Below are positions 9,593 through 64,000 of a stretch of DNA of 64,000 bases, piece by piece (positions within the stretch are counted from its first letter, which is position 1; each line of letters starts with the position of its first letter). The position numbers and the translations under genes are program-made. The notes under the pieces were generated by a model. The model saw only the letters and a program-made list of their open reading frames with translations, did no database searches and had not been told where the DNA came from. The DNA lies in IMG/VR virus record IMGVR_UViG_3300027672_000010, positions 1-64,000 of that record; one strand, written 5' to 3'. Source of the DNA: a virus (Duplodnaviria; Caudoviricetes).

Positions 9593-10116
9593 TGTTCGAA
9601 TATATAAAGAAGTATAAGATTAAAGACTTTGACAGATTGCAGAACGAAGTGTTGATGGCAATCGAGATGATCAAAGCAGATAACGAAACCAAGTATGCCA
9701 AGATGAGTGCCTCTGATTATAAGGTAGATCTGAAAGGTGGATCGGAGTTGTATCGGAAACAAGTTCACGAGATGGTGAATGAGTGCGTAGAAGATTATAT
9801 GGCAGGGTGGAGATGCTCGGATTGGGAAATGCAGAACTGTTGGTTCGCAGAATACCGTGATGGCGCAGACTTTGATTATCACACACACGAAGGTTGTAAT
9901 ATGTCTGGTGTTATATCACTAGTACTAGACGAACCTCGTAATGGCACAAAACTAATGGGGTCGGATATCCAACCCTCGGAAGGAGAAGTCGTATTGTTTC
10001 CCGGTATGTTACCACACAAGAGTCCGTATGTATACGAAGGTGAGAAGATCGTTATAGGATTCAACTGGAACATGATGGGAAGTGAAGTTCATTCAACAGG
10101 AATAAGGGAAGAATAA
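9592..10116 (+). CDS. Putative 2OG-Fe(II) oxygenase (tandem paralog)
   Basis: YHTHEGCN...EGEVVLFPGMLPH. Confidence 0.7.
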   Translation: MFEYIKKYKIKDFDRLQNEVLMAIEMIKADNETKYAKMSASDYKVDLKGGSELYRKQVHEMVNECVEDYMAGWRCSDWEMQNCWFAEYRDGADFDYHTHEGCNMSGVISLVLDEPRNGTKLMGSDIQPSEGEVVLFPGMLPHKSPYVYEGEKIVIGFNWNMMGSEVHSTGIREE

Positions 10117-10117
10117 A

Positions 10118-10459
10118 ATGGCAGATAAGAAAGTATTAACAGTAGACTCGGATGGTTCGATGTTAGGAGCAGACGTTGACGGTGATGGACATATCACTGA
10201 GTCAGAACTCTCTATGCACCTAGAGTTTAAACGTAAGGAATTAGAAGACGCAGATGCGATGCGCGATGCCCAACGTAAGATGGCGTGGTTTGCCCTCTAT
10301 GGTATGTTGTTGTATCCGTTCGCAGTTGTACTTGCCTCACTCGCAGGTTTGTCCGAAGCAACGACTACATTAGGTTCAATGGCACCCACATACTTTGTAT
10401 CAGTTGCCGCGATAGTTGCCGCATTCTATGCGAAGGAAGCATTGAGTACGAAGAAGTAA
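10118..10459 (+). CDS. Two-TM membrane protein with EF-hand-like loop (holin-like candidate)
   Basis: DVDGDGHITESE, then two hydrophobic helices and basic C-terminus. Confidence 0.55.
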   Translation: MADKKVLTVDSDGSMLGADVDGDGHITESELSMHLEFKRKELEDADAMRDAQRKMAWFALYGMLLYPFAVVLASLAGLSEATTTLGSMAPTYFVSVAAIVAAFYAKEALSTKK

Positions 10460-10460
10460 G

Positions 10461-11327
10461 GTGGAGATTATATCATGGCGTGGTACTCCCGGAGTAGGTG
10501 ATTTTATGTGGGCACTTAATTGTGCCCATAACCACGCCTATGAAACTGGCACAAAGGTCGAGTTAGAGTTTCATTGGGAACATGATGAGAGTCACAACCA
10601 CCACTTCGAGGATCCAGAGACGATCATCGAACGGTGTGACTATCTACATTCATTCTATAACAGACAAGATGATGTAACGATCAAGCACATCTACGAAGCA
10701 TACAGTCGCTACAGAGATTGGAAGTTCGGAGATGATGTCGTAGAAGAGGCAGACGGTAGTAAACGTATTGCCGCGATAGTCCGTAAGAACAAGGCAAGGT
10801 TCTGGTTTCAGAATGGTAGGTATGATGATAAGGAAGGATCTGACATACCATGTAATGATTGGGGATTCAGAAAAGATGCGTTCAGGGATATCGACAAACG
10901 TAAGGTAGTTATCTGGAGACCAACGTTTAATGCGGAAACTCCAAGAACATGGAAAAAAGAGTTGACAAACGATGAGTGGGATGTTATAATAAGACAGTTG
11001 TCTGCGGCAGGATTATATGTAGTAGAGTTGACTTATAGAACACCAGTGAGAGAAGCACTGTATCACATATCAACCTGTAGACAGATCGTATGCTATGATG
11101 GAATGTGGCATTACATTGCTCGTAACTTATATAGACCTATGTTAATTATAAGTAGAGAGGGTATCACTAAGTATCATACACCCCATGCCCTTACAACAAC
11201 CTATGATAAAGGTAGAAACATATGGTCTTGGTTAGATGACATGAAAGACCTATTAGGTAAAAGTAAACACAAAGCAAGACACTTCGAAAAGAAGGATGAG
11301 AAATATTATAATGACAATGCCCGATGA
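10461..11327 (+). CDS. Putative GT-B glycosyltransferase (GT9-like)
   Basis: GVGD N-terminal motif, YDGMWHYIA C-terminal motif. Confidence 0.55.
   Translation: MEIISWRGTPGVGDFMWALNCAHNHAYETGTKVELEFHWEHDESHNHHFEDPETIIERCDYLHSFYNRQDDVTIKHIYEAYSRYRDWKFGDDVVEEADGSKRIAAIVRKNKARFWFQNGRYDDKEGSDIPCNDWGFRKDAFRDIDKRKVVIWRPTFNAETPRTWKKELTNDEWDVIIRQLSAAGLYVVELTYRTPVREALYHISTCRQIVCYDGMWHYIARNLYRPMLIISREGITKYHTPHALTTTYDKGRNIWSWLDDMKDLLGKSKHKARHFEKKDEKYYNDNAR
10962..10990 (+). promoter_or_regulatory. Perfect sigma70 consensus promoter inside a CDS
   Basis: TTGACA-17nt-TATAAT with extended -10 TG and upstream A-tract. Confidence 0.7.
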
Positions 11328-11520
11328 AAGATACCAAGCACTAAAGCGTACCGCAGAGTTCTTGAAAGATTTACAGACTCATAGTGGTAAGTACACGAGA
11401 GATGATATGAAAGAGATACGAAGAATGGCATCCTCTTGTCTACGTCATTACCCTTGGGATATGTACCTAGAAGATTTAGCAGAGATAGCACCACACATAC
11501 TGGAGAACAAAGATGGGTGA
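11311..11520 (+). CDS. Hypothetical protein
   Basis: MTMPDERY...CLRHYP motif; overlaps flanking genes. Confidence 0.6.
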   Translation: MTMPDERYQALKRTAEFLKDLQTHSGKYTRDDMKEIRRMASSCLRHYPWDMYLEDLAEIAPHILENKDG

Positions 11521-12496
11521 CATAAAGATAGATAGAGCAGTAATCGAAGTTAACGGAGCGTGTAACTTTGACTGTACTATGTGTCCCCAAGATAAACGTG
11601 TGGGTGGTAGACATAAAGGATTCCTTGCGAAGATGAACCTTATGGAGTTCGAAGATAACCTTCGGGACTGTAAGCAACACGGTATGCGAGTAGTCAACCT
11701 AGATGGATCAGGTGAAGCAACCCTTAACCGTAACCTTCCTATGTACATAGCATTAGTTAAGAAGTATGATTGTCAAGCAGTCATCTTCTCTAATGGTTTT
11801 AAGATGCACGGTCAGTTTATGAAAGACTGCGTGGACGCAGGTCTAGACTTCTTTAGGTTCTCGTTCGTAGGATCTAACCCAGAGAAGTATCAAGAGTGGA
11901 TGAACAACACGCGTGGATCATCCTACCATATTATCAAGAAGAACATCGAAGAGATGATGGCATACGTCAAAGCGACAGGTAGTACTTGTGTGGTAGAGAC
12001 ATATCATCTAATCACAGACAATGCCAACTTAGACGCAGAACTAGACGAGTACAAAGCATTAGTAGAAGAACTTGGTTGTAAGACTGAGATCTGGAAGATG
12101 CACAACTGGTCTGGGGCATATGATATAGGAGATAATAAAAGAGAGGGTACAACTAAGACTTGTGGAAGACCCTTCTCTCCAGATGTCGTAATCCGCGCAG
12201 GTGGTATTGACGGTGGGCGAGGCGCAGTTCATCCTTGTTGTCAAGTACTTGGACGAGACGAAGAGGCAGTCATGGGTCATACGTCTCACAATACAATCGA
12301 AGAGATCATCCGTGGCCCAGAGTACTCTGCTCTGCGCGAGTCTCATCGAACTGGTGAGTATACAGATTATTGCGGAGATTGTGACTTTTTACTTGACGAT
12401 CCCGAAACTTTAGTGTATACTAATAATAATAGAGCAACACAAAAAATGATCGGTACAGACTTCAATCTGGAAGATTATAGGAATGGTGGAGTATGA
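11513..12496 (+). CDS. Radical SAM/SPASM protein
   Basis: CNFDCTMC (CxxxCxxC), GEA, C-terminal C...PCC...CxxC. Confidence 0.9.
   Translation: MGDIKIDRAVIEVNGACNFDCTMCPQDKRVGGRHKGFLAKMNLMEFEDNLRDCKQHGMRVVNLDGSGEATLNRNLPMYIALVKKYDCQAVIFSNGFKMHGQFMKDCVDAGLDFFRFSFVGSNPEKYQEWMNNTRGSSYHIIKKNIEEMMAYVKATGSTCVVETYHLITDNANLDAELDEYKALVEELGCKTEIWKMHNWSGAYDIGDNKREGTTKTCGRPFSPDVVIRAGGIDGGRGAVHPCCQVLGRDEEAVMGHTSHNTIEEIIRGPEYSALRESHRTGEYTDYCGDCDFLLDDPETLVYTNNNRATQKMIGTDFNLEDYRNGGV
12393..12421 (+). promoter_or_regulatory. Internal sigma70-type promoter
   Basis: TTGACG-17nt-TATACT. Confidence 0.5.
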
Positions 12497-55773: not shown

Positions 55774-58700
55774 ATGTCGAATAATAAGACATTACCGTTA
55801 AAGTTAAAAGACAGTGATGGTAATCTCCAACAGATCAGTGCAACGGAGAAGAACTATGTTGCCTACCTTGCAGGACTACAGAACGCGCAAGCGGATAGTA
55901 GTGATGTAGGTCTTCTCACGCTTGCCTCTAGTGGAAACCGAGGAATCGGTTCCACCCTAGACACCTACTACCCAGAACCAGTAGGTACGCATCCTTACGA
56001 CCAAGTTTCGGTAATCAGTAGCACAAAGAACCTGTTCCAGATTAATGGTACGGCAAGCGAAGCAGATAGTGACTTCCGTCTACCCATTGCTCATTTCGGG
56101 GCGCACGTTTACGAACAACCTGCTTCGAACTTCAATGCCTTTAGTGATGAGATCAATGCTCGTATTGTTCTATCGGACTATCCGGGATCTTTAAAGTTAT
56201 CTCCAACTGCTCCTAGTTCTGACTATAGCATACTAGTACCTTCTGTTCTGTTAGACAAACGTGCTGATTCCGCAGGTAATGCGATTGTCATTAACGATTA
56301 CTCTATCTGGCGTAGAGATACAATGACTGCTCCTAGTGCTATCCTTGATAGTAAAGGCGGCATATCAAGTCTTGCAGGTATTAAGAGATCCAATGGAGAC
56401 TCTGGTACATTCCAAGGTATACAGAAATTAACTGACAGGCAGATCCAAGTATCTGTTGGTCAACGCGCAAAGACTAGACGTGCTATCAGTGGCAACGTTG
56501 GTTCATACGAACTTCGTACTGCTTCGCAAGGTGCCCCTGCCTCTGGAACTTGGGCATCTAAGGGTACCGCTACAAACACTATTCGACTGGTCAATGAAAT
56601 TGCGTACACAAGAACCAGTACTCGATCACGAGGTTCAGCATATGCAAGAACTCGTGTAGGTAACTATACAAGAAATTCTACTCGTAATGACCCACAGAAC
56701 TTTGCAGGTAATTATGGAACTACCTATGTAGGTAACTATACAAGAACATTTGCAGGTAATTATGCAGGTGACTTCACTGGTAATTATGCTCGTGACTTCG
56801 TTGGTAACTATCAGCGTGGATTTACTGGTGACTATACTGGTAATTACACTGGTGACTATACTCGTAACTTTACACGAAACCGCGCATCTACATTTAACCG
56901 CACTAGGGCGAGTAATTACGCAGGTAATTATACAGGCAACTATGCCAGAAACTTTGAACGTACTCGCAACTCAAACTATATTCTTAGTCGTGTGTCAACC
57001 TATCAACGTGGGTTCGCAGGTAACTATACTCGTATAATAGCAGACCAATACGCAGGTAACTTCGTAGGTAACTATGCTCGTACTGGTATTGTTTCTAGAA
57101 CAAGTGCTTACTCACGAACAAGAATTCAGAATAGAGTATCAAACTACTCTCGTGCTTTCTTAGGTAACTACTCAAGAGAATATCTGCGCACATCAACAGC
57201 AACAAGTACTACTGACTTTACTGGTGAATATTCTAGACAGTACCTCCGAACTCGTGTGTCTAACTATTCTCGTAACTTTGGTGGTAACTATTCAAGAGCA
57301 TATACTCGCGCATTCATTGGTAACTATGCCAGAACATTTGCAGGTAACTTTGTTGGTAACTATGTGGGAGGTGCCACTACTTATGGTACTCAAACTGCCT
57401 ATGGGAAAACTCGTATACAGAACAGGATAGTAACTTACATAGGTAACTATACACAGATTCGTACATCTCTCTATACAGGTAACTTTACGAGAGGCACTTA
57501 TTTTACAGGAAACTATATTGGAACTAATTGGCCAACAAGTGAAGTAAATCGATATGTCGGTAACTACACTCAGGGATTTACTCGCATATATGTTGCGAAT
57601 GCACAAAACTTCCAAGGTAACTACACAGGTGCGCAAATCTTTTATGGTGGGTTCTCAGGTGACTTTACTGATTATAGGTATGGTGGTTTCTACACTGGTG
57701 TAGAAAGTACCGTAACATTCACCGGTGACTTTACGAGAACTAGGGTAGCACTAGGAGCGTTTACTAGAGTATCTAATGTCGGTGATGGAAATTATCTTAG
57801 AAATAGTGGCGTTGGATACACTAGAACCAGAACATCTACTATAATCTCAGTAAGGGAAAGAGCAAGTACGAATATTGGTTATGCCAGACTTGGCCCCGCG
57901 AAAGGCGGCAGTCCGCTATACTATATTGGTGCAGGTTTCTATACAGGTAACTACACAGGCCTCCAAAACTTTACTGGCAACTTCCTTAGATTGTTTGTGG
58001 GCAACTACGTCCGTACCTTCAATAGATCTTCTAGTCGTCAGTTCAGTCGTCTAATATTGGGGTCAAGGTACTCAACCTTTACTGGCAACTATGTTGGTAA
58101 CTATGCTCGTGCCTTTACTAGAACTTCTACACGAAATAGAGACAGCACTTACATTAGAACTCGAACCTCAAGTTACACAAGAAACTTTGAACGTACTCGT
58201 GTATCAAACTATACTCGCGACTTCGCAGGTAACTTCTCAAGAAACTTCAGTAGAATACGCGTTAGTTCTTACATAGGTAATTTCATTGGTAACTATTCTA
58301 GAATCTTTGTGGGTGACTATAGTAGAAACTATGCGAGAACATTCGTAGGAAATTACACTGGTAACTATCAGAGAACGTTTATTGGTAACTACACAAGAGA
58401 TTATAACAGAACTTCTACGCGAACAAGTATCGTTAACAGAACCTCTGCATATAATAGAACTCGTGTATCAAACTATGCTCGTACCTTTGTAGGAGACTAC
58501 ACAAGAAACTTCGGTGGTAACTACGCAAGAAACTTTACTGCTGATTATACTAGAATAAGAGCATCATCTTTTGCTAGGACTAGAACTTCTAACTTTACTA
58601 GAAATCGTGGTTCAACATATACAGGTGTATACTCTGCTGTTTATGTAGGCATATATAGTAGAGCATATAGTCGTACCCGAACAAGTAACTACACTAGAAA

Positions 58701-58941
58701 CTCTACTAGAGATTCGACCAGAAACCGTGATTCGGCATATGCAAGAACTCGTGGTTCTACTTTTACTAGGTCAAGAACAAGTGCGTATACTGGTGACTTC
58801 ACTGGAGATTACACAAGAAACTTCGAGGGTAACTACTCACGGAACTTTGCAGGTAATTATGTTGGTAACTATGTTGGGCAGACTATCGGTAATAGTATAT
58901 TCAACGTGGAGACTTATACTTTATATGTAAGAACTGCATAG
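55774..58941 (+). CDS. Self-complementary repeat filament protein A (1055 aa)
   Basis: About 275-aa N-domain, then tetrapeptide repeats whose N- and C-arms (56608-57363, 58117-58872) mirror each other. Confidence 0.9.
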   Translation: MSNNKTLPLKLKDSDGNLQQISATEKNYVAYLAGLQNAQADSSDVGLLTLASSGNRGIGSTLDTYYPEPVGTHPYDQVSVISSTKNLFQINGTASEADSDFRLPIAHFGAHVYEQPASNFNAFSDEINARIVLSDYPGSLKLSPTAPSSDYSILVPSVLLDKRADSAGNAIVINDYSIWRRDTMTAPSAILDSKGGISSLAGIKRSNGDSGTFQGIQKLTDRQIQVSVGQRAKTRRAISGNVGSYELRTASQGAPASGTWASKGTATNTIRLVNEIAYTRTSTRSRGSAYARTRVGNYTRNSTRNDPQNFAGNYGTTYVGNYTRTFAGNYAGDFTGNYARDFVGNYQRGFTGDYTGNYTGDYTRNFTRNRASTFNRTRASNYAGNYTGNYARNFERTRNSNYILSRVSTYQRGFAGNYTRIIADQYAGNFVGNYARTGIVSRTSAYSRTRIQNRVSNYSRAFLGNYSREYLRTSTATSTTDFTGEYSRQYLRTRVSNYSRNFGGNYSRAYTRAFIGNYARTFAGNFVGNYVGGATTYGTQTAYGKTRIQNRIVTYIGNYTQIRTSLYTGNFTRGTYFTGNYIGTNWPTSEVNRYVGNYTQGFTRIYVANAQNFQGNYTGAQIFYGGFSGDFTDYRYGGFYTGVESTVTFTGDFTRTRVALGAFTRVSNVGDGNYLRNSGVGYTRTRTSTIISVRERASTNIGYARLGPAKGGSPLYYIGAGFYTGNYTGLQNFTGNFLRLFVGNYVRTFNRSSSRQFSRLILGSRYSTFTGNYVGNYARAFTRTSTRNRDSTYIRTRTSSYTRNFERTRVSNYTRDFAGNFSRNFSRIRVSSYIGNFIGNYSRIFVGDYSRNYARTFVGNYTGNYQRTFIGNYTRDYNRTSTRTSIVNRTSAYNRTRVSNYARTFVGDYTRNFGGNYARNFTADYTRIRASSFARTRTSNFTRNRGSTYTGVYSAVYVGIYSRAYSRTRTSNYTRNSTRDSTRNRDSAYARTRGSTFTRSRTSAYTGDFTGDYTRNFEGNYSRNFAGNYVGNYVGQTIGNSIFNVETYTLYVRTA

Positions 58942-58989: not shown

Positions 58990-61900
58990 GTGGCAAAGTC
59001 GAACATACCGCTAAAGGCAGAAGGAACAAACGCTGATCTGAAGGAGTTAACTCCTACGGAAGAGCATTACCTCGCCTATCAAGCAGGACTACAATTAGCG
59101 GCAGGTACCACAAGCGCAGGTACTCTACATAAGACTTCGGGTACCACTATCGGTACGTTCGTTGATACTTACTTCAATGAGGCAGACGGCACACACCCTG
59201 CCTCTGCCATAACTTCTGGTAGTACATCTACTCCCCTAAAGCAAATACAAGGTACTGCTAACTACACTGGTGCGAACTATCGCAGACCAGTAGGGTATCT
59301 GAACAGTGGTGCCGAAGGTCTATATGAATTTCCTGACTCTGATATGTCTACTCTTACGACTAGACTTAATGCTCGTATTGCTCTATCAGATTATCCCGGA
59401 ACATATAAACTAGGAACCTCTGCTCCGTCAAGTGACTATAGTGCCTTACTGTCAAACGTATACACCGATACATTGGGTAACGGAACAAGCACAGTATACA
59501 ACATCTACAAACGAAATACAATGACTGCCCCCTCAACTATCAGACCTATGGGTTTGGTTGGTTCAGATTCGGCAGGGTCGTTTAGTGGTATTCGTGAACT
59601 GAATGATAACGAGATCAAGCATACGTTTGGTCAACACGCCAAGACAGAACGTGCAGTAGTAGGTAACATTGGTTCTTATCAGTTGAGATCTGCTACCCAA
59701 GGTGTTCCTTCTGCTTCTGGTACATGGGCGGCAAAGGGTACTGCTACTAATACAAAGAGAACAACTTCGGAAGTTGCGTACACAAGAACTCGCGCATCCG
59801 CATATACTCGTAGTCGTGGTTCTGTTTATGCAAGAACTCGTACTTCGGCATACACAAGAAATTCCCTTCAGACCTTTACTGGTACTTACGCAGGTAACTT
59901 TGTAGGTAACTACACTCGCGCCTTTGCCGGTAACTATTCAAGAGACTTTGCAGGAAACTACGTTGGAGACTTCATTGGTAACTATCAACGTACTCGTGTG
60001 TCGCAATACACAACTAATTTCACAGACGTATTTACTAGAAACTTTGTAGGCAACTATCAACGTATTCGAGTATCAAACTATACTCGTGACCGTATTACTG
60101 TATTTACTGGTAACTTCATAGGAAACTATGTTCGTACTCGTATCTCTGCCTATGCTAGAACAAGTACTCGAACTAGAAACAGCACCTACATTAGAACTCG
60201 AACCTCTGCATACACGACTGTCTTCGCAGGTAACTATATTGGAGACTTCGTAGGAAACTACTCACGAACTCGTGTGTCTGGTTACTCTGGTGCTTACACT
60301 AGAATAAGAAACTCTGCCTATAACAGAACTCGTACTTCAACATATACGCGTGACCGTGTTACTAACTTTACTGGTGATTTCACTGGTAACTATTCTCGTA
60401 ACCGTGTGTCGGCATATACTAGAATCTCAACACGAACTAGAGTATCCGCATATACTCGCTCTAGAATCTCAACATATACTCGTGATAGATTACAAACATT
60501 TACTGGGGATTTCGTAGGTAACTATGGACGTACTCGCACCTCTGCTTATATCAGAACTCGTGCATCTAACTATGCAGGAAACTATACTGGGAACTATACT
60601 CGTACTCGTATCTCTGCTTACACGCGTGACCGTGTTACTAACTTTACTGGTGATTTCATTGGTAATTACTCACGAACTCGTAGTTCAGCATATATCCGTG
60701 ATAGACTAGTAACCTTTACTGGTGACTATGTTGGTAACTATAGCAGAACATTTGTTGGTAACTATTCCAGAACATTTGTTGGTAACTATGCTAGGGCATT
60801 CGCAGGGAATTACGTTGGTAATTATGCGAGGATCTCAACAAGAACTCGTACATCTACTTACAATAGAACATCAACAAGAGATTCTTTAGTAACATATACT
60901 CGCGATAATGTTGTTGGTTATACAGGTAATTTCGGTGGTAACTATTCCAGAAACTTTATTGGTAACTATTCCAGAACATTCGCAGGTGAATATGTTGGTA
61001 ACTATGCTCGTGCGTTCGCAGGAGAGTACATAGGTAACTATTCACGAACTTTCGTAGGAGACTACATTGGTAACTTCATAGGAAACTATGCTCGTGGATT
61101 CGCAGGTGAATATGTTGGTAACTATGCTCGTGGATTCGTGGGCGAATATGCTCGTACCAGAAACTCTACATACAATCGAAATAGTACTAGAATCTCTACG
61201 CGTATTCTTAACTATACCAGACTTCGAATTGCTATCAGTACTCGCATCCTAGACTATCAGCGTACATCCACAAGAACTAGCACACCTACCGAAACGTACA
61301 CACGAATTGGTTTCTATGCAGGTAACTTTGTAGGTAACTATACGCGTATCAGTATAAACACTGGTACCTATATTCGTATCAGAACTGCGACAGGAACGTA
61401 CACAAGAAATAGAACTGCGATAGGAACATACACAAGACTTCGAATTGCCATTAGCACAAACACTGGAACGTACACACGAAACCGTATTGGATCGTTCCTT
61501 GGTAACTATACTAGACTTCGAATTGCCATCAGTACAAACACTGGTACTTACATCCGTATCCGTACTGCCGCGTATCTTGGTAACTATACTCGTATATTAT
61601 ACTACGCAGGTAACTTCGCAGGTAACTACACTCGTACTCTGTATTATACTGGTAACTATACTCGTAATCTTTCTTACATTGGTAACTATACTGGTAACTA
61701 CACGAGAAACTTAGCATACCTTGGTAACTATACTCGTAATCTTTCTTACATTGGTAACTATACTGGTAACTATACTCGTACTCTGTATTATACTGGTAAC
61801 TATACTCGTACTCTGTATTACGCAGGTAACTTTGTTGGTAACTTCTCAGGGCAGTATACTAGAACATCGACTCGTACTTCTACTCGCAATGTTGCCTATA

Positions 61901-64000
61901 CCCGACAGGGTGGAAAGGGCGGTAACGTGACTCTATATTACATTGGTAGTGGTTATTACGCAGGTAACTTCGCAGGTAACTACACTCGTACTAGTACGCG
62001 GACTAGTACGCGGGCCCGTGCCGCGACTGGTACTTACATTAGAATTCGTACTGCGACTGGCACATACATTCGTATACGACTAACCAACCGTATTGCTACT
62101 GGCACATACACACGAAACCGTATTGCTACTGGCACATACATTCGTATACGACTAACCAACCGTATTGCTACTGGTACTTACATTAGAATTCGTACTGCGA
62201 CTGGCACATACATTCGTACCTCTACAAGAACCAGTACTCCTATAGGAACTTATACTAGAAACCGTATTGGTTCGTACACAGGTAACTATCAACGTACTCT
62301 GTATTATACTGGTAACTATCTTGGTAACTATACGCGTACTAGTGCGCCCTCATACATTGGTAACTATCAACGTACTCTGTATTATACTGGTAACTATCTT
62401 GGTAACTACACGAGAATCTTAGCATACCTTGGTAACTATACGCGTACTCTATACTATACTGGTAACTATCAGCGTACCTTATATTATACTGGTGATTACA
62501 CTCGTACCTCTACTCGTACCTCTACTCGTATACTTGGGTACACTAGAATCGGTTCATACGCAGGAGACTTTGTAGGTAACTATACTCGTATTGGTTTCTA
62601 TACTGGTAACTATACTGGTGACTACACGAGAGTAGGATACTATACTGGTGACTTCACTGGCAACTATGCTCGTGCTTTTATTGGTAACTATTCACGAACT
62701 CGTATATCTACATATAATAGAACATCCACACGGAATCGTATCTCGACTTATATTAGAACTCGTGCTACTAACTTTACTCGTAACCGTATCTCCGCATATG
62801 CTAGAACTAGTACGCGTAGTCGTATCTCAGCATACGCTAGGACTAGTACTCGCGCACGAGCATCTACCTACACTAGAGGTAGAGTAAGTGCATACACAAG
62901 AACATCCACACGAGATAGTACTGTAGTTTCTACTTCGGGTGGGGGTGCAAGATACTCAGATCAATCTAACTTGTTGTGGCAAAACTTCCCTGAGTGGACA
63001 GTTGGTACTGGATCCGCAACTAACTACGGACAGAATGGTGACGGTAACTCTCGTCTTGTAGTATCAGATTCCCCAAAAGGAAGTGATATCGTTTGGCAGA
63101 CACTAAACAACGATACAGCATCTAACGCAGATGGTGGTTGGAATACGTCTTCATTTGCAGTTGACCATACTAAGAAATATCGCTTCTCCGTTTGGATGAG
63201 AAGACCAGTAATTGGTAATGGATATGGATACTTAGGTATTGGTGGAGCAGTTCTTAACAGAGACAATGGTGCCGCCAATAGTAACCATTACTTCTGGTAT
63301 TCAAACTCATTCTTTAATTCTCAAAATGCAAACGAATGGTTCTTGATTGTAGGTCACGTCTGGCCAACTGGTTCTGGTGCAGGTGCGATAGATTCTGCTT
63401 CTGGTATATATAACGTTGCAGGTGAGAAGGTCGCAAACATTATTCGTGATGCGATATGGAATAATAACACAACAACTTACCATCGTTCATACTTGTACTA
63501 TTCAACTGATACCGCCACAAACCAACAGTTCTGGGAACCTCGTGTAGATGATATGACTCATTCACTTGTTCCAACTGTTGCTAATATGATTGCACAGTCA
63601 GGTTCATACACGCGTACATTCGCAGGTAACTTTGTTGGTAACTACTCTCGTGGGTTTGCAGGTAACTATACTGGCGAATATTTAAGAACCTCGACTCGTA
63701 CTCGTAACAGTTCTTATATCCGTAACCGCGTATCAACCTACACTAGAAACCGTGTGTCTGCGTATGCTCGTACTCGTATCACAGATTATGTTGCGAACTA
63801 TATTGGTAATTATGCTCGTAACTTTGTGGGAGAGTATACGCGTAACAGTATACAGGTATTCGCAGGTAACTTTGTTGGTAACTACTCTCGCGCATTTGCA
63901 GGAGAATACACAAGGATCTCTACGCGAACTCGTGTAAGTAACTTCGTAGGTAACTATAGCAGAAACTTCGCAGGAGACTATTCTCGTACTCGTGTTACTG
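58990..64000 (+). CDS. Self-complementary repeat filament protein B, >1670 aa, 3' partial (absent from ORF track)
   Basis: Frame 1 open from GTG 58990 to window end in my translation; N-domain paralogous to protein A (PLK...YxAYxAGLQ, GTHP, NARIxLSDYPG, GSYxLR, GTWxxKGTATNT). Confidence 0.92.
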   Translation, partial: MAKSNIPLKAEGTNADLKELTPTEEHYLAYQAGLQLAAGTTSAGTLHKTSGTTIGTFVDTYFNEADGTHPASAITSGSTSTPLKQIQGTANYTGANYRRPVGYLNSGAEGLYEFPDSDMSTLTTRLNARIALSDYPGTYKLGTSAPSSDYSALLSNVYTDTLGNGTSTVYNIYKRNTMTAPSTIRPMGLVGSDSAGSFSGIRELNDNEIKHTFGQHAKTERAVVGNIGSYQLRSATQGVPSASGTWAAKGTATNTKRTTSEVAYTRTRASAYTRSRGSVYARTRTSAYTRNSLQTFTGTYAGNFVGNYTRAFAGNYSRDFAGNYVGDFIGNYQRTRVSQYTTNFTDVFTRNFVGNYQRIRVSNYTRDRITVFTGNFIGNYVRTRISAYARTSTRTRNSTYIRTRTSAYTTVFAGNYIGDFVGNYSRTRVSGYSGAYTRIRNSAYNRTRTSTYTRDRVTNFTGDFTGNYSRNRVSAYTRISTRTRVSAYTRSRISTYTRDRLQTFTGDFVGNYGRTRTSAYIRTRASNYAGNYTGNYTRTRISAYTRDRVTNFTGDFIGNYSRTRSSAYIRDRLVTFTGDYVGNYSRTFVGNYSRTFVGNYARAFAGNYVGNYARISTRTRTSTYNRTSTRDSLVTYTRDNVVGYTGNFGGNYSRNFIGNYSRTFAGEYVGNYARAFAGEYIGNYSRTFVGDYIGNFIGNYARGFAGEYVGNYARGFVGEYARTRNSTYNRNSTRISTRILNYTRLRIAISTRILDYQRTSTRTSTPTETYTRIGFYAGNFVGNYTRISINTGTYIRIRTATGTYTRNRTAIGTYTRLRIAISTNTGTYTRNRIGSFLGNYTRLRIAISTNTGTYIRIRTAAYLGNYTRILYYAGNFAGNYTRTLYYTGNYTRNLSYIGNYTGNYTRNLAYLGNYTRNLSYIGNYTGNYTRTLYYTGNYTRTLYYAGNFVGNFSGQYTRTSTRTSTRNVAYTRQGGKGGNVTLYYIGSGYYAGNFAGNYTRTSTRTSTRARAATGTYIRIRTATGTYIRIRLTNRIATGTYTRNRIATGTYIRIRLTNRIATGTYIRIRTATGTYIRTSTRTSTPIGTYTRNRIGSYTGNYQRTLYYTGNYLGNYTRTSAPSYIGNYQRTLYYTGNYLGNYTRILAYLGNYTRTLYYTGNYQRTLYYTGDYTRTSTRTSTRILGYTRIGSYAGDFVGNYTRIGFYTGNYTGDYTRVGYYTGDFTGNYARAFIGNYSRTRISTYNRTSTRNRISTYIRTRATNFTRNRISAYARTSTRSRISAYARTSTRARASTYTRGRVSAYTRTSTRDSTVVSTSGGGARYSDQSNLLWQNFPEWTVGTGSATNYGQNGDGNSRLVVSDSPKGSDIVWQTLNNDTASNADGGWNTSSFAVDHTKKYRFSVWMRRPVIGNGYGYLGIGGAVLNRDNGAANSNHYFWYSNSFFNSQNANEWFLIVGHVWPTGSGAGAIDSASGIYNVAGEKVANIIRDAIWNNNTTTYHRSYLYYSTDTATNQQFWEPRVDDMTHSLVPTVANMIAQSGSYTRTFAGNFVGNYSRGFAGNYTGEYLRTSTRTRNSSYIRNRVSTYTRNRVSAYARTRITDYVANYIGNYARNFVGEYTRNSIQVFAGNFVGNYSRAFAGEYTRISTRTRVSNFVGNYSRNFAGDYSRTRVT
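62935..63600 (+). other. Globular carbohydrate-binding-like domain inserted in protein B
   Basis: Non-repetitive, Trp-rich, about 220 aa: NLL...W, DGGWN, YRFSVW, WFLIVGH, HRSYLYY, FWEPRVD. Confidence 0.6.

What the first reader, a model, noticed from the sequence alone, without database searches (positions are those of the whole stretch)
61435..62408. Matched DNA duplications at mirror positions on both arms
On the left arm, a 50-nt identical repeat occurs at 61651 and 61723 (offset 72). Its partner region on the right has a different 47-nt identical repeat at 62056 and 62128 (offset 72). Likewise a near-identical left repeat at 61435/61513 (offset 78) is mirrored by an identical right repeat at 62281/62359 (offset 78). 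Synonymous identity implies recent copying. Lengthening a hairpin needs two compensating events at separate sites, so this implies either strong selection on sequential slippage/gene conversion or an unknown coordinated mechanism for tuning filament length.
Basis: partly seen in the sequence, partly recalled or inferred. Interest (0 to 1): 0.82.

Follow-up and report, generated by a model that had tools for sequence, protein, structure and literature searches.

The report
Mirror-matched repeat copies in fold-back fibre
A giant marine-phage tail-fibre protein seems to run out, turn and pair with itself, and the freshly copied DNA tracts and every length change on one half are matched at the mirror position on the other half, as if selection keeps the two halves in register.

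Summary
The repeats are real: 51 nt at 61650/61722, 47 nt at 62056/62128, 50 nt at 62281/62359; the 61435/61513 pair is only 64/78 identical. Codon bias cannot explain them (P about 1e-6 each). They lie in a 1934-aa fibre ORF (58990-64794) whose two 715-residue arms mirror each other around a GGKGG turn (K976). At i+j=1951 all unit boundaries coincide, and the left and right identity tracts map onto each other within 1-3 residues. Relatives keep the arms equal: right minus left is 29-31 in ten B-like proteins with left arms of 624-801 aa, and 7 in five proteins of a second subfamily. Eight arm indels between relatives are length-matched. The tracts are not fresh tandem duplications. They cover 47-51 of 72-78 nt, and the 24-aa array has the same length in relatives, so they are conversion-like patches. 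Only 3 of 16 left-arm exact repeats have a DNA-identical mirror partner. Best reading: independent recombination in each arm, filtered by selection for register. I found no sign of a coordinated mechanism. This scan has already noted this fibre family on other DNA.

The parts
58990..64000 (+). Fibre ORF B. It runs past the window end to 64794 of the contig and encodes 1934 aa.
58990..59769 (+). Conserved N-terminal domain (aa 1-260), the family signature. No Pfam or PDB match.
   Evidence: (343 representatives at E<=1e-3)
59770..61905 (+). Left (outgoing) arm, aa 261-972. It is built of 4-residue units, with 6-, 8- and 10-residue units near the tip.
61906..61926 (+). Gly-rich turn, aa 973-979, with K976 at the mirror centre.
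61927..62919 (+). Right (returning) arm, tip-proximal part, aa 980-1310.
62920..63597 (+). Non-repetitive globular insert in the right arm only. It shifts i+j by 222, from 1951/1954 to 2173/2176.
63598..64000 (+). Right arm, distal part. It continues to aa 1912 (nt 64725) beyond the window.
61650..61700 (+). Left 24-aa period, identity tract copy 1 (aa 888-904).
61702..61722 (+). Left unique linker between the copies (aa 905-911). It differs densely from the homologous part of the next period. A near-copy lies in the right arm near 62413-62433.
   Evidence: (families D9, D14)
61722..61772 (+). Left 24-aa period, identity tract copy 2 (aa 912-928).
62056..62102 (+). Right 24-aa period, identity tract copy 1 (aa 1023-1038). 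It is the mirror partner of left copy 2 and the likely recipient of the copying.
62104..62127 (+). Right unique linker (aa 1039-1046), the mirror partner of the left linker.
62128..62174 (+). Right 24-aa period, identity tract copy 2 (aa 1047-1062). It is the mirror partner of left copy 1 and is nearly codon-identical to the orthologous part of L002, so it is the likely donor.
61435..61590 (+). Left 26-aa periods (two copies, 64/78 nt identical).
62281..62408 (+). Right 26-aa periods. The 50-nt exact tracts lie at 62281-62330 and 62359-62408.
61630..61810 (+). Left pair at offset 144 (37 nt exact at 61630 and 61774).
62026..62218 (+). Right pair at offset 144 (49 nt exact at 62026 and 62170). 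Its mirror midpoint sum is 1956.3.

Best explanation
ORF B encodes a tail-fibre-module protein whose chain most likely runs out for about 715 residues, turns at a Gly-rich loop (K976) and runs back antiparallel. Every repeat unit then faces a unit of the same length and of a complementary type on the other arm. Within each arm, neighbouring periods (24 aa = 4+6+4+4+6; 26 aa = 4+8+4+10) are similar enough in DNA to recombine. Unequal exchange changes the copy number, and short-patch gene conversion overwrites one period with its neighbour. The 47-51-nt identical tracts are the traces of such recent copying. The two arms share no DNA homology, so events on the left and on the right are separate. 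Variants survive only if both arms end up with the same length and matching unit types at mirror positions. This is purifying selection for register, the protein counterpart of compensatory change in an RNA stem. Matched states then spread by ordinary homologous recombination, including exchange of whole tip cassettes, which preserves matching automatically. Shown here: the repeats, their recency, their mirror placement, and the equality of arm lengths and of indels across relatives. Inferred: the physical hairpin, the conversion mechanism and the order of events.
For: Mirror register. At i+j=1951 all unit boundaries coincide from aa 760-975 against 976-1190 without any bulge. Mutual information between facing residues peaks at i+j=1954 near the tip (1.458; mean 0.920, sd 0.115 over 111 values), at 1956 in the middle (1.69; mean 1.311, sd 0.120 over 45 values) and at 2176 beyond the 222-aa insert (1.411; mean 1.073, sd 0.059 over 146 values). 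The best parallel offset scores only 1.213.

Arm equality without any alignment. Right minus left arm length is 29-31 in B, L002, L003, L007, L010, L012, L016, L025, L028 and L029, while the left arm ranges from 624 to 801 aa. It is 7 in L072, L073, L076, L082 and L086 (left arm 286-452 aa) and 6 in P0017.

Matched indels between relatives. L002 vs L025: 28 and 28, with flanks 98-100% identical in DNA. B vs L025/L002: 26 and 26 internally, plus 26 and 26 at the tip. L007 vs L010/L012: 14 and 14. P0002/P0004 vs P0003: 36 and 38. L073 vs L076: 24 and 24, from the position of the turn motif. L069 vs L072: net 12 and 12. L017 vs L046: 24+36+20 and 20+24+36.

Recency. P about 1e-6 per tract.

Conversion rather than new length. 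The tracts cover 47-51 of 72-78 nt. The 24-aa array has equal length in B, L025 and L002. B aa 1045-1084 is nearly codon-identical to L002, whereas 1023-1046 and left 893-928 are B-specific.

No DNA coupling. The region holds only three weak inverted repeats.

Mirror DNA-identity pairs exceed chance: 3 observed against a mean of 0.225 under shifted centres, and 0 of 276 shifts reach 3.

The AlphaFold2 model of a short family member, built with a 31-sequence alignment, has two long strands, 241-267 and 379-407, at pLDDT 83-97. Their positions sum to 646-648, as expected for the base of a hairpin.
Against: No structure shows the hairpin. AlphaFold2 on B aa 800-1151 without an alignment gave pLDDT 61.9 and pTM 0.48, with the left arm as a run of roughly 11-residue strands rather than one long ribbon. 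In the short member, the arms themselves (265-383) are below pLDDT 50, and I could not read contacts, so pairing of the two long strands with each other is inferred.

Thirteen of 16 left-arm exact repeats have no DNA-identical partner.

Some members are asymmetric: paralog A -104, L079 -140, P0046 -203, P0083 +78. L081 carries a one-sided 58-aa insertion beside the tip.

L082 vs L093 (65% identity) could not be resolved into matched indels, and P0002 vs P0004 show two 5-aa indels of opposite sign in an irregular region.

The residue-level register is uncertain by about 3 residues (1951 by unit boundaries, 1954 by mutual information).

Only 20 of 143 pooled sequences had all the anchors my patterns needed.
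Confidence: 0.7

Rival explanations
1. The same length constraint arises from pairing between chains. Two or three chains lie head-to-tail, so that the left arm of one chain faces the right arm of another, and the chain does not fold back on itself.
For: Sequence covariation and matched indels cannot tell intramolecular from intermolecular antiparallel pairing. No structural model resolves the arms.
Against: A Gly-rich turn motif sits exactly at the mirror centre in several subfamilies. The conserved N-terminal domain and the conserved C-terminal tail would meet at one end only in a hairpin. The model of the short member places a long strand leaving the N-domain and a long strand ending in the C-tail, with position sums of 646-648. 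Irregular, variable regions cluster at the centre, as expected of a distal tip.
Confidence: 0.12
2. An unknown coordinated process copies a whole two-stranded rung, both arms at once, in one event, to tune fibre length.
For: In B the identity tracts, the linkers and the offset-144 pairs mirror each other within 1-5 residues. L016 has an exactly mirrored 44-aa pair, with a midpoint sum of 1765.8 against 1765 expected.
Against: The arms share no sequence or inverted repeat through which DNA-level copying could be coupled. Donor and recipient lie in opposite order on the two arms. Thirteen of 16 left-arm exact repeats lack a DNA-identical partner. The left and right copies of the 26-aa pair differ in age. 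The extra 28-aa segments of L002 are not recent local duplicates (68/84 and 61/84 nt).
Confidence: 0.04
3. There is no physical coupling. Each arm is an independent repeat solenoid, and equal offsets merely reflect shared repeat periods.
For: The single-sequence AlphaFold2 model folds the left arm as short strands. Periods of 24-26 aa resemble solenoid rungs (my own knowledge).
Against: This does not explain why right minus left length stays constant within 2 residues while arms vary by 177 aa. It does not explain why indels between close relatives come in equal pairs at mirror positions, or why block types alternate in mirror order with complementary types.
Confidence: 0.05
4. The repeats are assembly artefacts.
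For: Short-read contigs break at these repeats, and none spans an array.
Against: The exact tracts are at most 51 nt. Contig pieces from runs of different studies are identical and cross the copy junctions (X1 61671-61772; X3 62073-62157; X1 and X3 62301-62388). Seventeen of 24 listed runs hold at least half of the sampled words. The frame stays open and the arms stay exactly matched. Independent relatives show the same architecture.
Confidence: 0.02

Closest known systems
Needle of the phage T4 long-tail-fibre protein gp37 (domains D10-D11, PDB 2XGF)
   Same: It is a phage fibre in which the chain goes out to a distal tip and comes back. In PMC6957217 (passages read), D10 is made of residues 811-881 plus 1010-1026, and D11 of residues 882-1009 lies between them.
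   Different: The gp37 fold-back is about 130 residues long and trimeric, with His-coordinated iron. B has about 715 residues per arm, no His and no Cys in the arms, and no sequence match to any PDB chain or Pfam family. Its oligomeric state is unknown.
Antiparallel coiled-coil arms of SMC proteins
   Same: One chain folds back so that an N-terminal and a C-terminal segment pair along their length, which constrains the arm length. I saw PMC5344682 as a search listing and abstract only. That indels there are symmetric is from my own knowledge and from an earlier scan note.
   Different: SMC arms are helical heptad coiled coils. The arms here are Thr/Arg/Tyr/Gly/Asn-rich 4-residue units predicted as strand.
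Compensatory evolution and concerted evolution of repeats in RNA stems
   Same: Two distant sites must change together to keep pairing. Intermediates are selected against or short-lived.
   Different: The pairing here is between peptide units, and the compensated changes are indels and conversion patches of 14-38 residues, not single bases. This is an analogy from my own knowledge.
T4 gp37 host-range duplications between His boxes (recalled, not checked in any call)
   Same: Recombination between short repeated motifs in a fibre gene duplicates small modules.
   Different: There, as I recall, duplications are single tandem events that change host range. A need for a matching change on a returning strand was not described.

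Membership tests
Uncharacterised fold-back fibre family of T4-like marine phages (no public name) | Conserved N-terminal domain of about 260 aa | tested here: met
   phmmer with aa 1-260 found 343 cluster representatives at E<=1e-3 and 159 at E<=1e-30.
Uncharacterised fold-back fibre family of T4-like marine phages (no public name) | Conserved C-terminal tail ending in the TYTLYVR-like motif | tested here: met
   B ends with it, as do the complete relatives.
Uncharacterised fold-back fibre family of T4-like marine phages (no public name) | Two repeat arms of equal length in mirror-complementary register around a Gly-rich turn | tested here: met
   (arms of 715 and 715 aa after removing the 222-aa insert).
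Uncharacterised fold-back fibre family of T4-like marine phages (no public name) | Location in the baseplate and tail-fibre gene module | tested here: met
   PHROG baseplate wedge and hub hits lie just upstream. The homologue in phage C48C1 lies among tail-fibre genes.
T4 gp37 needle (D10-D11) | Sequence homology to gp37 or the collar domain | tested here: not met
   No PDB chain at E<=0.01, no Pfam family, no Foldseek match for the short member.
T4 gp37 needle (D10-D11) | His-x-His iron-binding repeats along the needle | tested here: not met
   There are 0 His in the 1409 arm residues. That the motif defines the needle is recalled and is partly supported by the PMC6957217 passages on H929.
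T4 gp37 needle (D10-D11) | Trimer of fold-back chains | not testable with these tools
   No oligomer prediction was made for three copies.
Antiparallel coiled-coil hairpin (SMC-like) | Alpha-helical heptad repeats | tested here: not met
   The arms have a 4-residue period, are rich in T, R, Y, G and N, and are modelled as strands.
Beta-solenoid repeat proteins | Each arm folds on itself in rungs of one period, with no partner arm needed | tested here: inconclusive
   The single-sequence model shows short strands in the left arm, but arm-length coupling is not expected of independent solenoids.

The most novel reading that the evidence does not exclude
Whole two-stranded rungs of the fibre are copied as units by a single coordinated event that acts on both arms at once, giving the phage a built-in way to step fibre length up or down. 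In other words, matched gain and loss of paired modules would be a dedicated, fast length- and host-range-tuning device rather than the residue of selection on independent events.
Probability: 0.04. Interest if true: 0.9.

Novelty: new variant of a known kind. Interest (0 to 1): 0.62.

Why it matters
If the fold-back reading is right, this is a protein that evolves like an RNA stem. Its two halves must stay paired over about 700 residues. Insertions, deletions and gene-conversion patches are therefore tolerated only in mirror-matched pairs. That gives a rare, clean readout of structural constraint from sequence alone. Arm lengths in relatives track each other to within 1-2 residues over a 177-residue range. 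It also suggests how phages can vary the length of a receptor-seeking fibre in discrete steps. The family is large (343 cluster representatives) and has no Pfam family or solved relative, so a structure would probably reveal a new fibrous fold. For this particular finding, the practical result is that no exotic copying mechanism is needed.

Tried and rejected
The megablast search of the ORF against phage records found nothing.

The word-indexed protein search with the N-terminal 300 aa gave only 9 hits among 8000 candidates, which the repeats swamped.

Complex prediction with the left arm 806-970 against the right arm 981-1145 gave 'no answer' (score 0.04, mark 0.34). I report it here only, as evidence neither for nor against pairing.

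Sequencing runs: only Logan contigs were available, and they break at the repeats. None spans an array and no indel rows were listed. The X3 joint 61649>61722 (skips 72) has a 20-nt side and 51 ambiguous letters, and that side is itself repeated at offset 144, so I do not read it as a deletion allele. The rearranged 355-nt contig in X18 (record 18) is a diverged relative whose flanks match other units, so it says nothing about arm lengths.

Foldseek of the short-member model against the PDB found no match at E<=0.001.

My first hand register (i+j=1957, pairing 4+6 blocks as wholes) left 2-residue mismatches. I dropped it for 1951, where every unit faces a unit of equal length. My early count of unequal segments between the TSTRTST motifs (192 vs 164 aa) was wrong, because those motifs are not each other's partners: they face xGNF units.

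Codon bias as the cause of the identity was rejected. A DNA or RNA palindrome as the cause was rejected.

Literature searches found no description of this fibre or of mirror-matched indels in a beta fibre.
Full report
Context. The window is bases 1-64000 of a 92,722-bp contig with T4-like baseplate genes just upstream of the finding (PHROG hits). The only GenBank phage with a homologue of the N-terminal domain is phage C48C1 (Kyanoviridae), where a 3347-aa hypothetical protein lies among tail-fibre genes. The finding lies in ORF B, 58990-64794, 1934 aa, which runs past the window end. Its paralog A (55774-58941, 1055 aa) lies directly upstream. B has no Pfam family and no sequence relative in the PDB. 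Its N-terminal 260 aa define a large family: 343 cluster representatives at E<=1e-3, 263 at E<=1e-10 and 159 at E<=1e-30.

Observation. All four repeat pairs exist: 51 nt at 61650/61722 (offset 72), 47 nt at 62056/62128 (offset 72), 50 nt at 62281/62359 (offset 78), and a weaker pair at 61435/61513 (offset 78; 64/78 identical, longest exact run 17 nt). Further pairs share offsets across the two sides: 144 nt (61630/61774 and 62026/62170), 30 nt, and 276 nt (60346/60622 and 63823/64099). Given the arms' own codon usage, identical peptides would be encoded by identical codons with a probability of about 4e-6, 6e-7 and 5e-6 for the three exact tracts. The copying is therefore recent.

Is there a hairpin? 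The arms are rich in Thr, Arg, Tyr, Gly and Asn, with no His or Cys. They are built of 4-residue units ending in an aromatic residue. Near the centre there are also 6-, 8- and 10-residue units of two kinds, a Gly-Asn-Tyr/Leu-Tyr-Tyr kind and a Thr-Gly-Thr-Tyr/Ile-Arg-Ile-Arg kind. I wrote the left arm backwards under the right arm with i+j=1951. Every unit boundary then coincides from aa 760-975 against 976-1190: 4 faces 4, 6 faces 6, 8 faces 8 and 10 faces 10. The two kinds always face each other, and xGNF units face TRTS units on both sides. The mirror centre falls on K976 of a GGKGG motif.

Mutual information between facing residues peaks at i+j=1954 for the tip region (1.458, against a mean of 0.920 and sd of 0.115 over 111 values). 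It peaks at 1956 for the middle and at 2176 for the distal arms beyond a 222-residue non-repetitive insert in the right arm. The best parallel offset is lower, at 1.213. With the insert removed, the first left unit (261-264) faces the last right unit (1909-1912), and both arms are 715 residues long. The residue-level register is uncertain by about 3.

Relatives confirm the block logic. L002 and L025 carry an extra block at the tip. It is of the Thr-Gly-Thr-Tyr kind on the left and of the Leu-Tyr-Tyr kind on the right.

Arm lengths in relatives. I used sequence anchors only: the end of the N-domain, the Lys of the turn motif, the borders of the globular insert and the C-terminal motif. Right minus left arm length is 31, 30, 30, 29, 29, 29, 29, 31, 31 and 31 in B, L002, L003, L007, L010, L012, L016, L025, L028 and L029, while the left arm is 721, 801, 801, 662, 648, 648, 624, 773, 627 and 627 aa. 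In a second subfamily (L072, L073, L076, L082, L086) it is 7 in all five, with left arms of 286-452 aa. In P0017 it is 6. Some of these proteins are near-duplicates: L002/L003 and L010/L012 are 99.6% identical, and L028/L029 are 95.7% identical.

Four proteins are asymmetric: paralog A -104, L079 -140, P0046 -203 and P0083 +78. These have irregular, non-repeat stretches on one side that I did not subtract. Only 20 of the 143 pooled complete sequences matched all my anchor patterns, and the rest were not evaluated.

Indels between close relatives. L002 and L025 are 94.2% identical in DNA. They differ by one 28-aa indel on each arm, in flanks that are 98-100% identical. B differs from L025 and L002 by 26 aa on each arm inside the 26-aa array (two periods in B, three in the others) and by 26 aa on each side of the tip. 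L007 differs from L010/L012 by 14 aa on each arm. P0002/P0004 differ from P0003 by 36 and 38 aa. L073 differs from L076 by 24 aa on each side of the turn motif (K718 vs K694, total lengths 1185 vs 1137). L069 and L072 differ by a net 12 aa on each side. L017 and L046 differ by 24+36+20 aa on the left and 20+24+36 aa on the right.

One-sided differences were a 4-aa indel at the turn (L083/L084, and likewise L016/L028) and a 58-aa insertion beside the tip of L081 that contains a second turn-like motif. L082 vs L093 (65% identity), the central parts of L017 vs L046, and two 5-aa indels of opposite sign in P0002 vs P0004 were left unresolved.

What the identical tracts are. They are not fresh tandem duplications. 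Such an event would leave at least 72 or 78 identical bases, but only 47-51 are identical. The rest of each period differs at many synonymous sites: for example, 5 synonymous and 3 non-synonymous codon differences in the left 24-aa pair, all but one of them in the last 7 codons. Each arm reads X-Y-u-Y-X. Y is the identical tract, u is a unique linker and X is a generic unit that is itself duplicated at offset 144. At i+j=1951, left Y copies 888-904 and 912-928 face right Y copies 1047-1062 and 1023-1038 within one residue, and the linkers 905-911 and 1039-1046 face each other.

The 24-aa array has the same length and the same 10,14,10,14,10,14,10 pattern in B, L025 and L002. B aa 1045-1084 is almost codon-identical to L002, whereas right 1023-1046 and left 893-928 are specific to B. 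In the B lineage, then, one rung of the ladder was overwritten on both strands by the sequence of the neighbouring rung, with right 1047-1062 as the donor. Alternatively, the whole tip segment was imported from another allele in which this had already happened. The left linker has a near-copy in the right arm (families D9 and D14), which shows that short patches also move between like units on different arms.

Left and right events are not always of the same age. Over the 26-codon period the left 26-aa copies carry 5 synonymous codon differences, 4 of them in the 13-codon stretch aa 816-828 of the shared core, while the 17 codons of the right exact tract carry none. The extra 28-aa segments of L002 are not recent local duplicates (68/84 and 61/84 nt identical to their neighbours).

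How general is DNA identity on both arms? In seven B-like genomes, 16 left-arm exact repeats of at least 24 nt lie opposite the tip-proximal right arm. Three of them have a right-arm exact repeat with the same offset whose midpoint sum is within 6 of twice the turn position minus one: two in B, and one exactly mirrored 44-aa pair in L016. Shifting the assumed centre by 13-150 residues gave a mean of 0.225 and a maximum of 2 matches, and none of 276 shifts reached 3. Paired identity is thus far above chance but is the exception. Equal length is the rule.

Mechanism. The arms share no inverted repeat or other DNA similarity that could couple them, and donor and recipient lie in opposite order on the two arms. 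The simplest account is frequent unequal exchange and short-patch conversion within each array, followed by selection for equal length and complementary unit types. T4-like phages recombine heavily (my own knowledge). One-sided loops are tolerated in this family, as shown by the 222-aa insert, paralog A's asymmetric tip and the L081 insertion. A single-arm intermediate could therefore be viable for a while. Double crossovers that span the tip move matched pairs together without breaking register. This may explain the mosaic identity profiles, where the tips are 71-91% identical between genomes whose flanks are 95-100% identical.

Structure predictions. AlphaFold2 on B aa 800-1151 without an alignment was weak (pLDDT 61.9, pTM 0.48). 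It drew the left arm as short strands, not one ribbon. AlphaFold2 on the 409-aa family member of locus L070 with a 31-sequence alignment gave a confident N-domain and two long strands, 241-267 and 379-407. The first leads out of the N-domain and the second ends in the C-terminal tail, and their positions sum to 646-648. At that sum, Tyr faces Tyr and Gly faces Ala in the first repeat units. The arms between them were below pLDDT 50. I infer, but could not verify, that the two long strands pair with each other. Foldseek found no PDB match.

Assembly. Seventeen of 24 listed runs hold at least half of the sampled words, and the 20 runs that hold any part come from 12 studies. Contig pieces in X1 and X3 are identical to the window and cross the copy junctions, but no contig spans an array.

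Comparison with what is known. The nearest solved analogue is the T4 gp37 needle, whose chain goes out and returns (D10 = 811-881 plus 1010-1026; D11 = 882-1009; passages of PMC6957217). B shares no sequence with it, has no His, and is more than five times longer per arm. The evolutionary behaviour resembles that of SMC coiled-coil arms (PMC5344682, listing and abstract only) and of compensatory change in RNA stems.

My four literature searches found no description of this fibre. This scan has noted the same architecture, including equal indels at mirror positions and paired duplications, in other genomes and for paralog A of this genome. I did not use those notes as evidence.

Verdict. The tracts are conversion-like patches rather than new length, and selection on separate events suffices to explain them.

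Noticed in passing
window 61702-61722 and about 62413-62433: The unique linker of the left 24-aa array has a near-identical DNA copy (one base different over about 40 nt, flanks included) in the right arm's Leu-Tyr-Tyr block. Short patches therefore also move between like units on opposite arms.
   Followed up: partly
L081 aa 579-649 (locus L081, ORF 9980-12268) versus L079: L081 has a one-sided 58-aa insertion next to the tip that contains a second turn-like Gly-rich motif. It may be a side branch or a remodelled tip.
   Followed up: partly
P0017 (572 aa): This family member has arms built of a quite different Pro/Cys/Thr-rich repeat of about 16-18 aa, yet left and right arm lengths are still nearly equal (151 vs 157). 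The fold-back design may be independent of the tetrapeptide code.
   Followed up: no
P0001 (1798 aa): A relative carries precomputed Pfam hits PF14312 and PF13385 (the latter recalled as a laminin-G/concanavalin-like domain; names not checked) inserted in or after the N-terminal domain, ahead of the repeat arms.
   Followed up: no
L026 and L027 (metagenome contigs): The ORF ends translate into strings typical of sequencing-adapter remnants (recalled), so these two contigs have artificial ends. I did not use them for any count.
   Followed up: no
window 55774-58941 (paralog A): Paralog A has no exact internal DNA repeat of 24 nt or more. Its left side is 104 residues longer than its right by my anchors, in line with an irregular tip region.
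   Followed up: partly
L001 16..25 kb (phage C48C1, CDS0201): The 3347-aa homologue contains a perfect 225-nt tandem duplication (aa 2007/2082). I did not check whether a mirror partner exists.
   Followed up: no
L020 (911 aa): This subfamily has 22-26-aa periods of the same unit type on both arms and many exact repeats at offset 78 nt on both sides. One left pair (435/461) mirrors a right pair (679/705) within about 4 aa if the turn is near aa 575, a position I judged by eye.
   Followed up: partly
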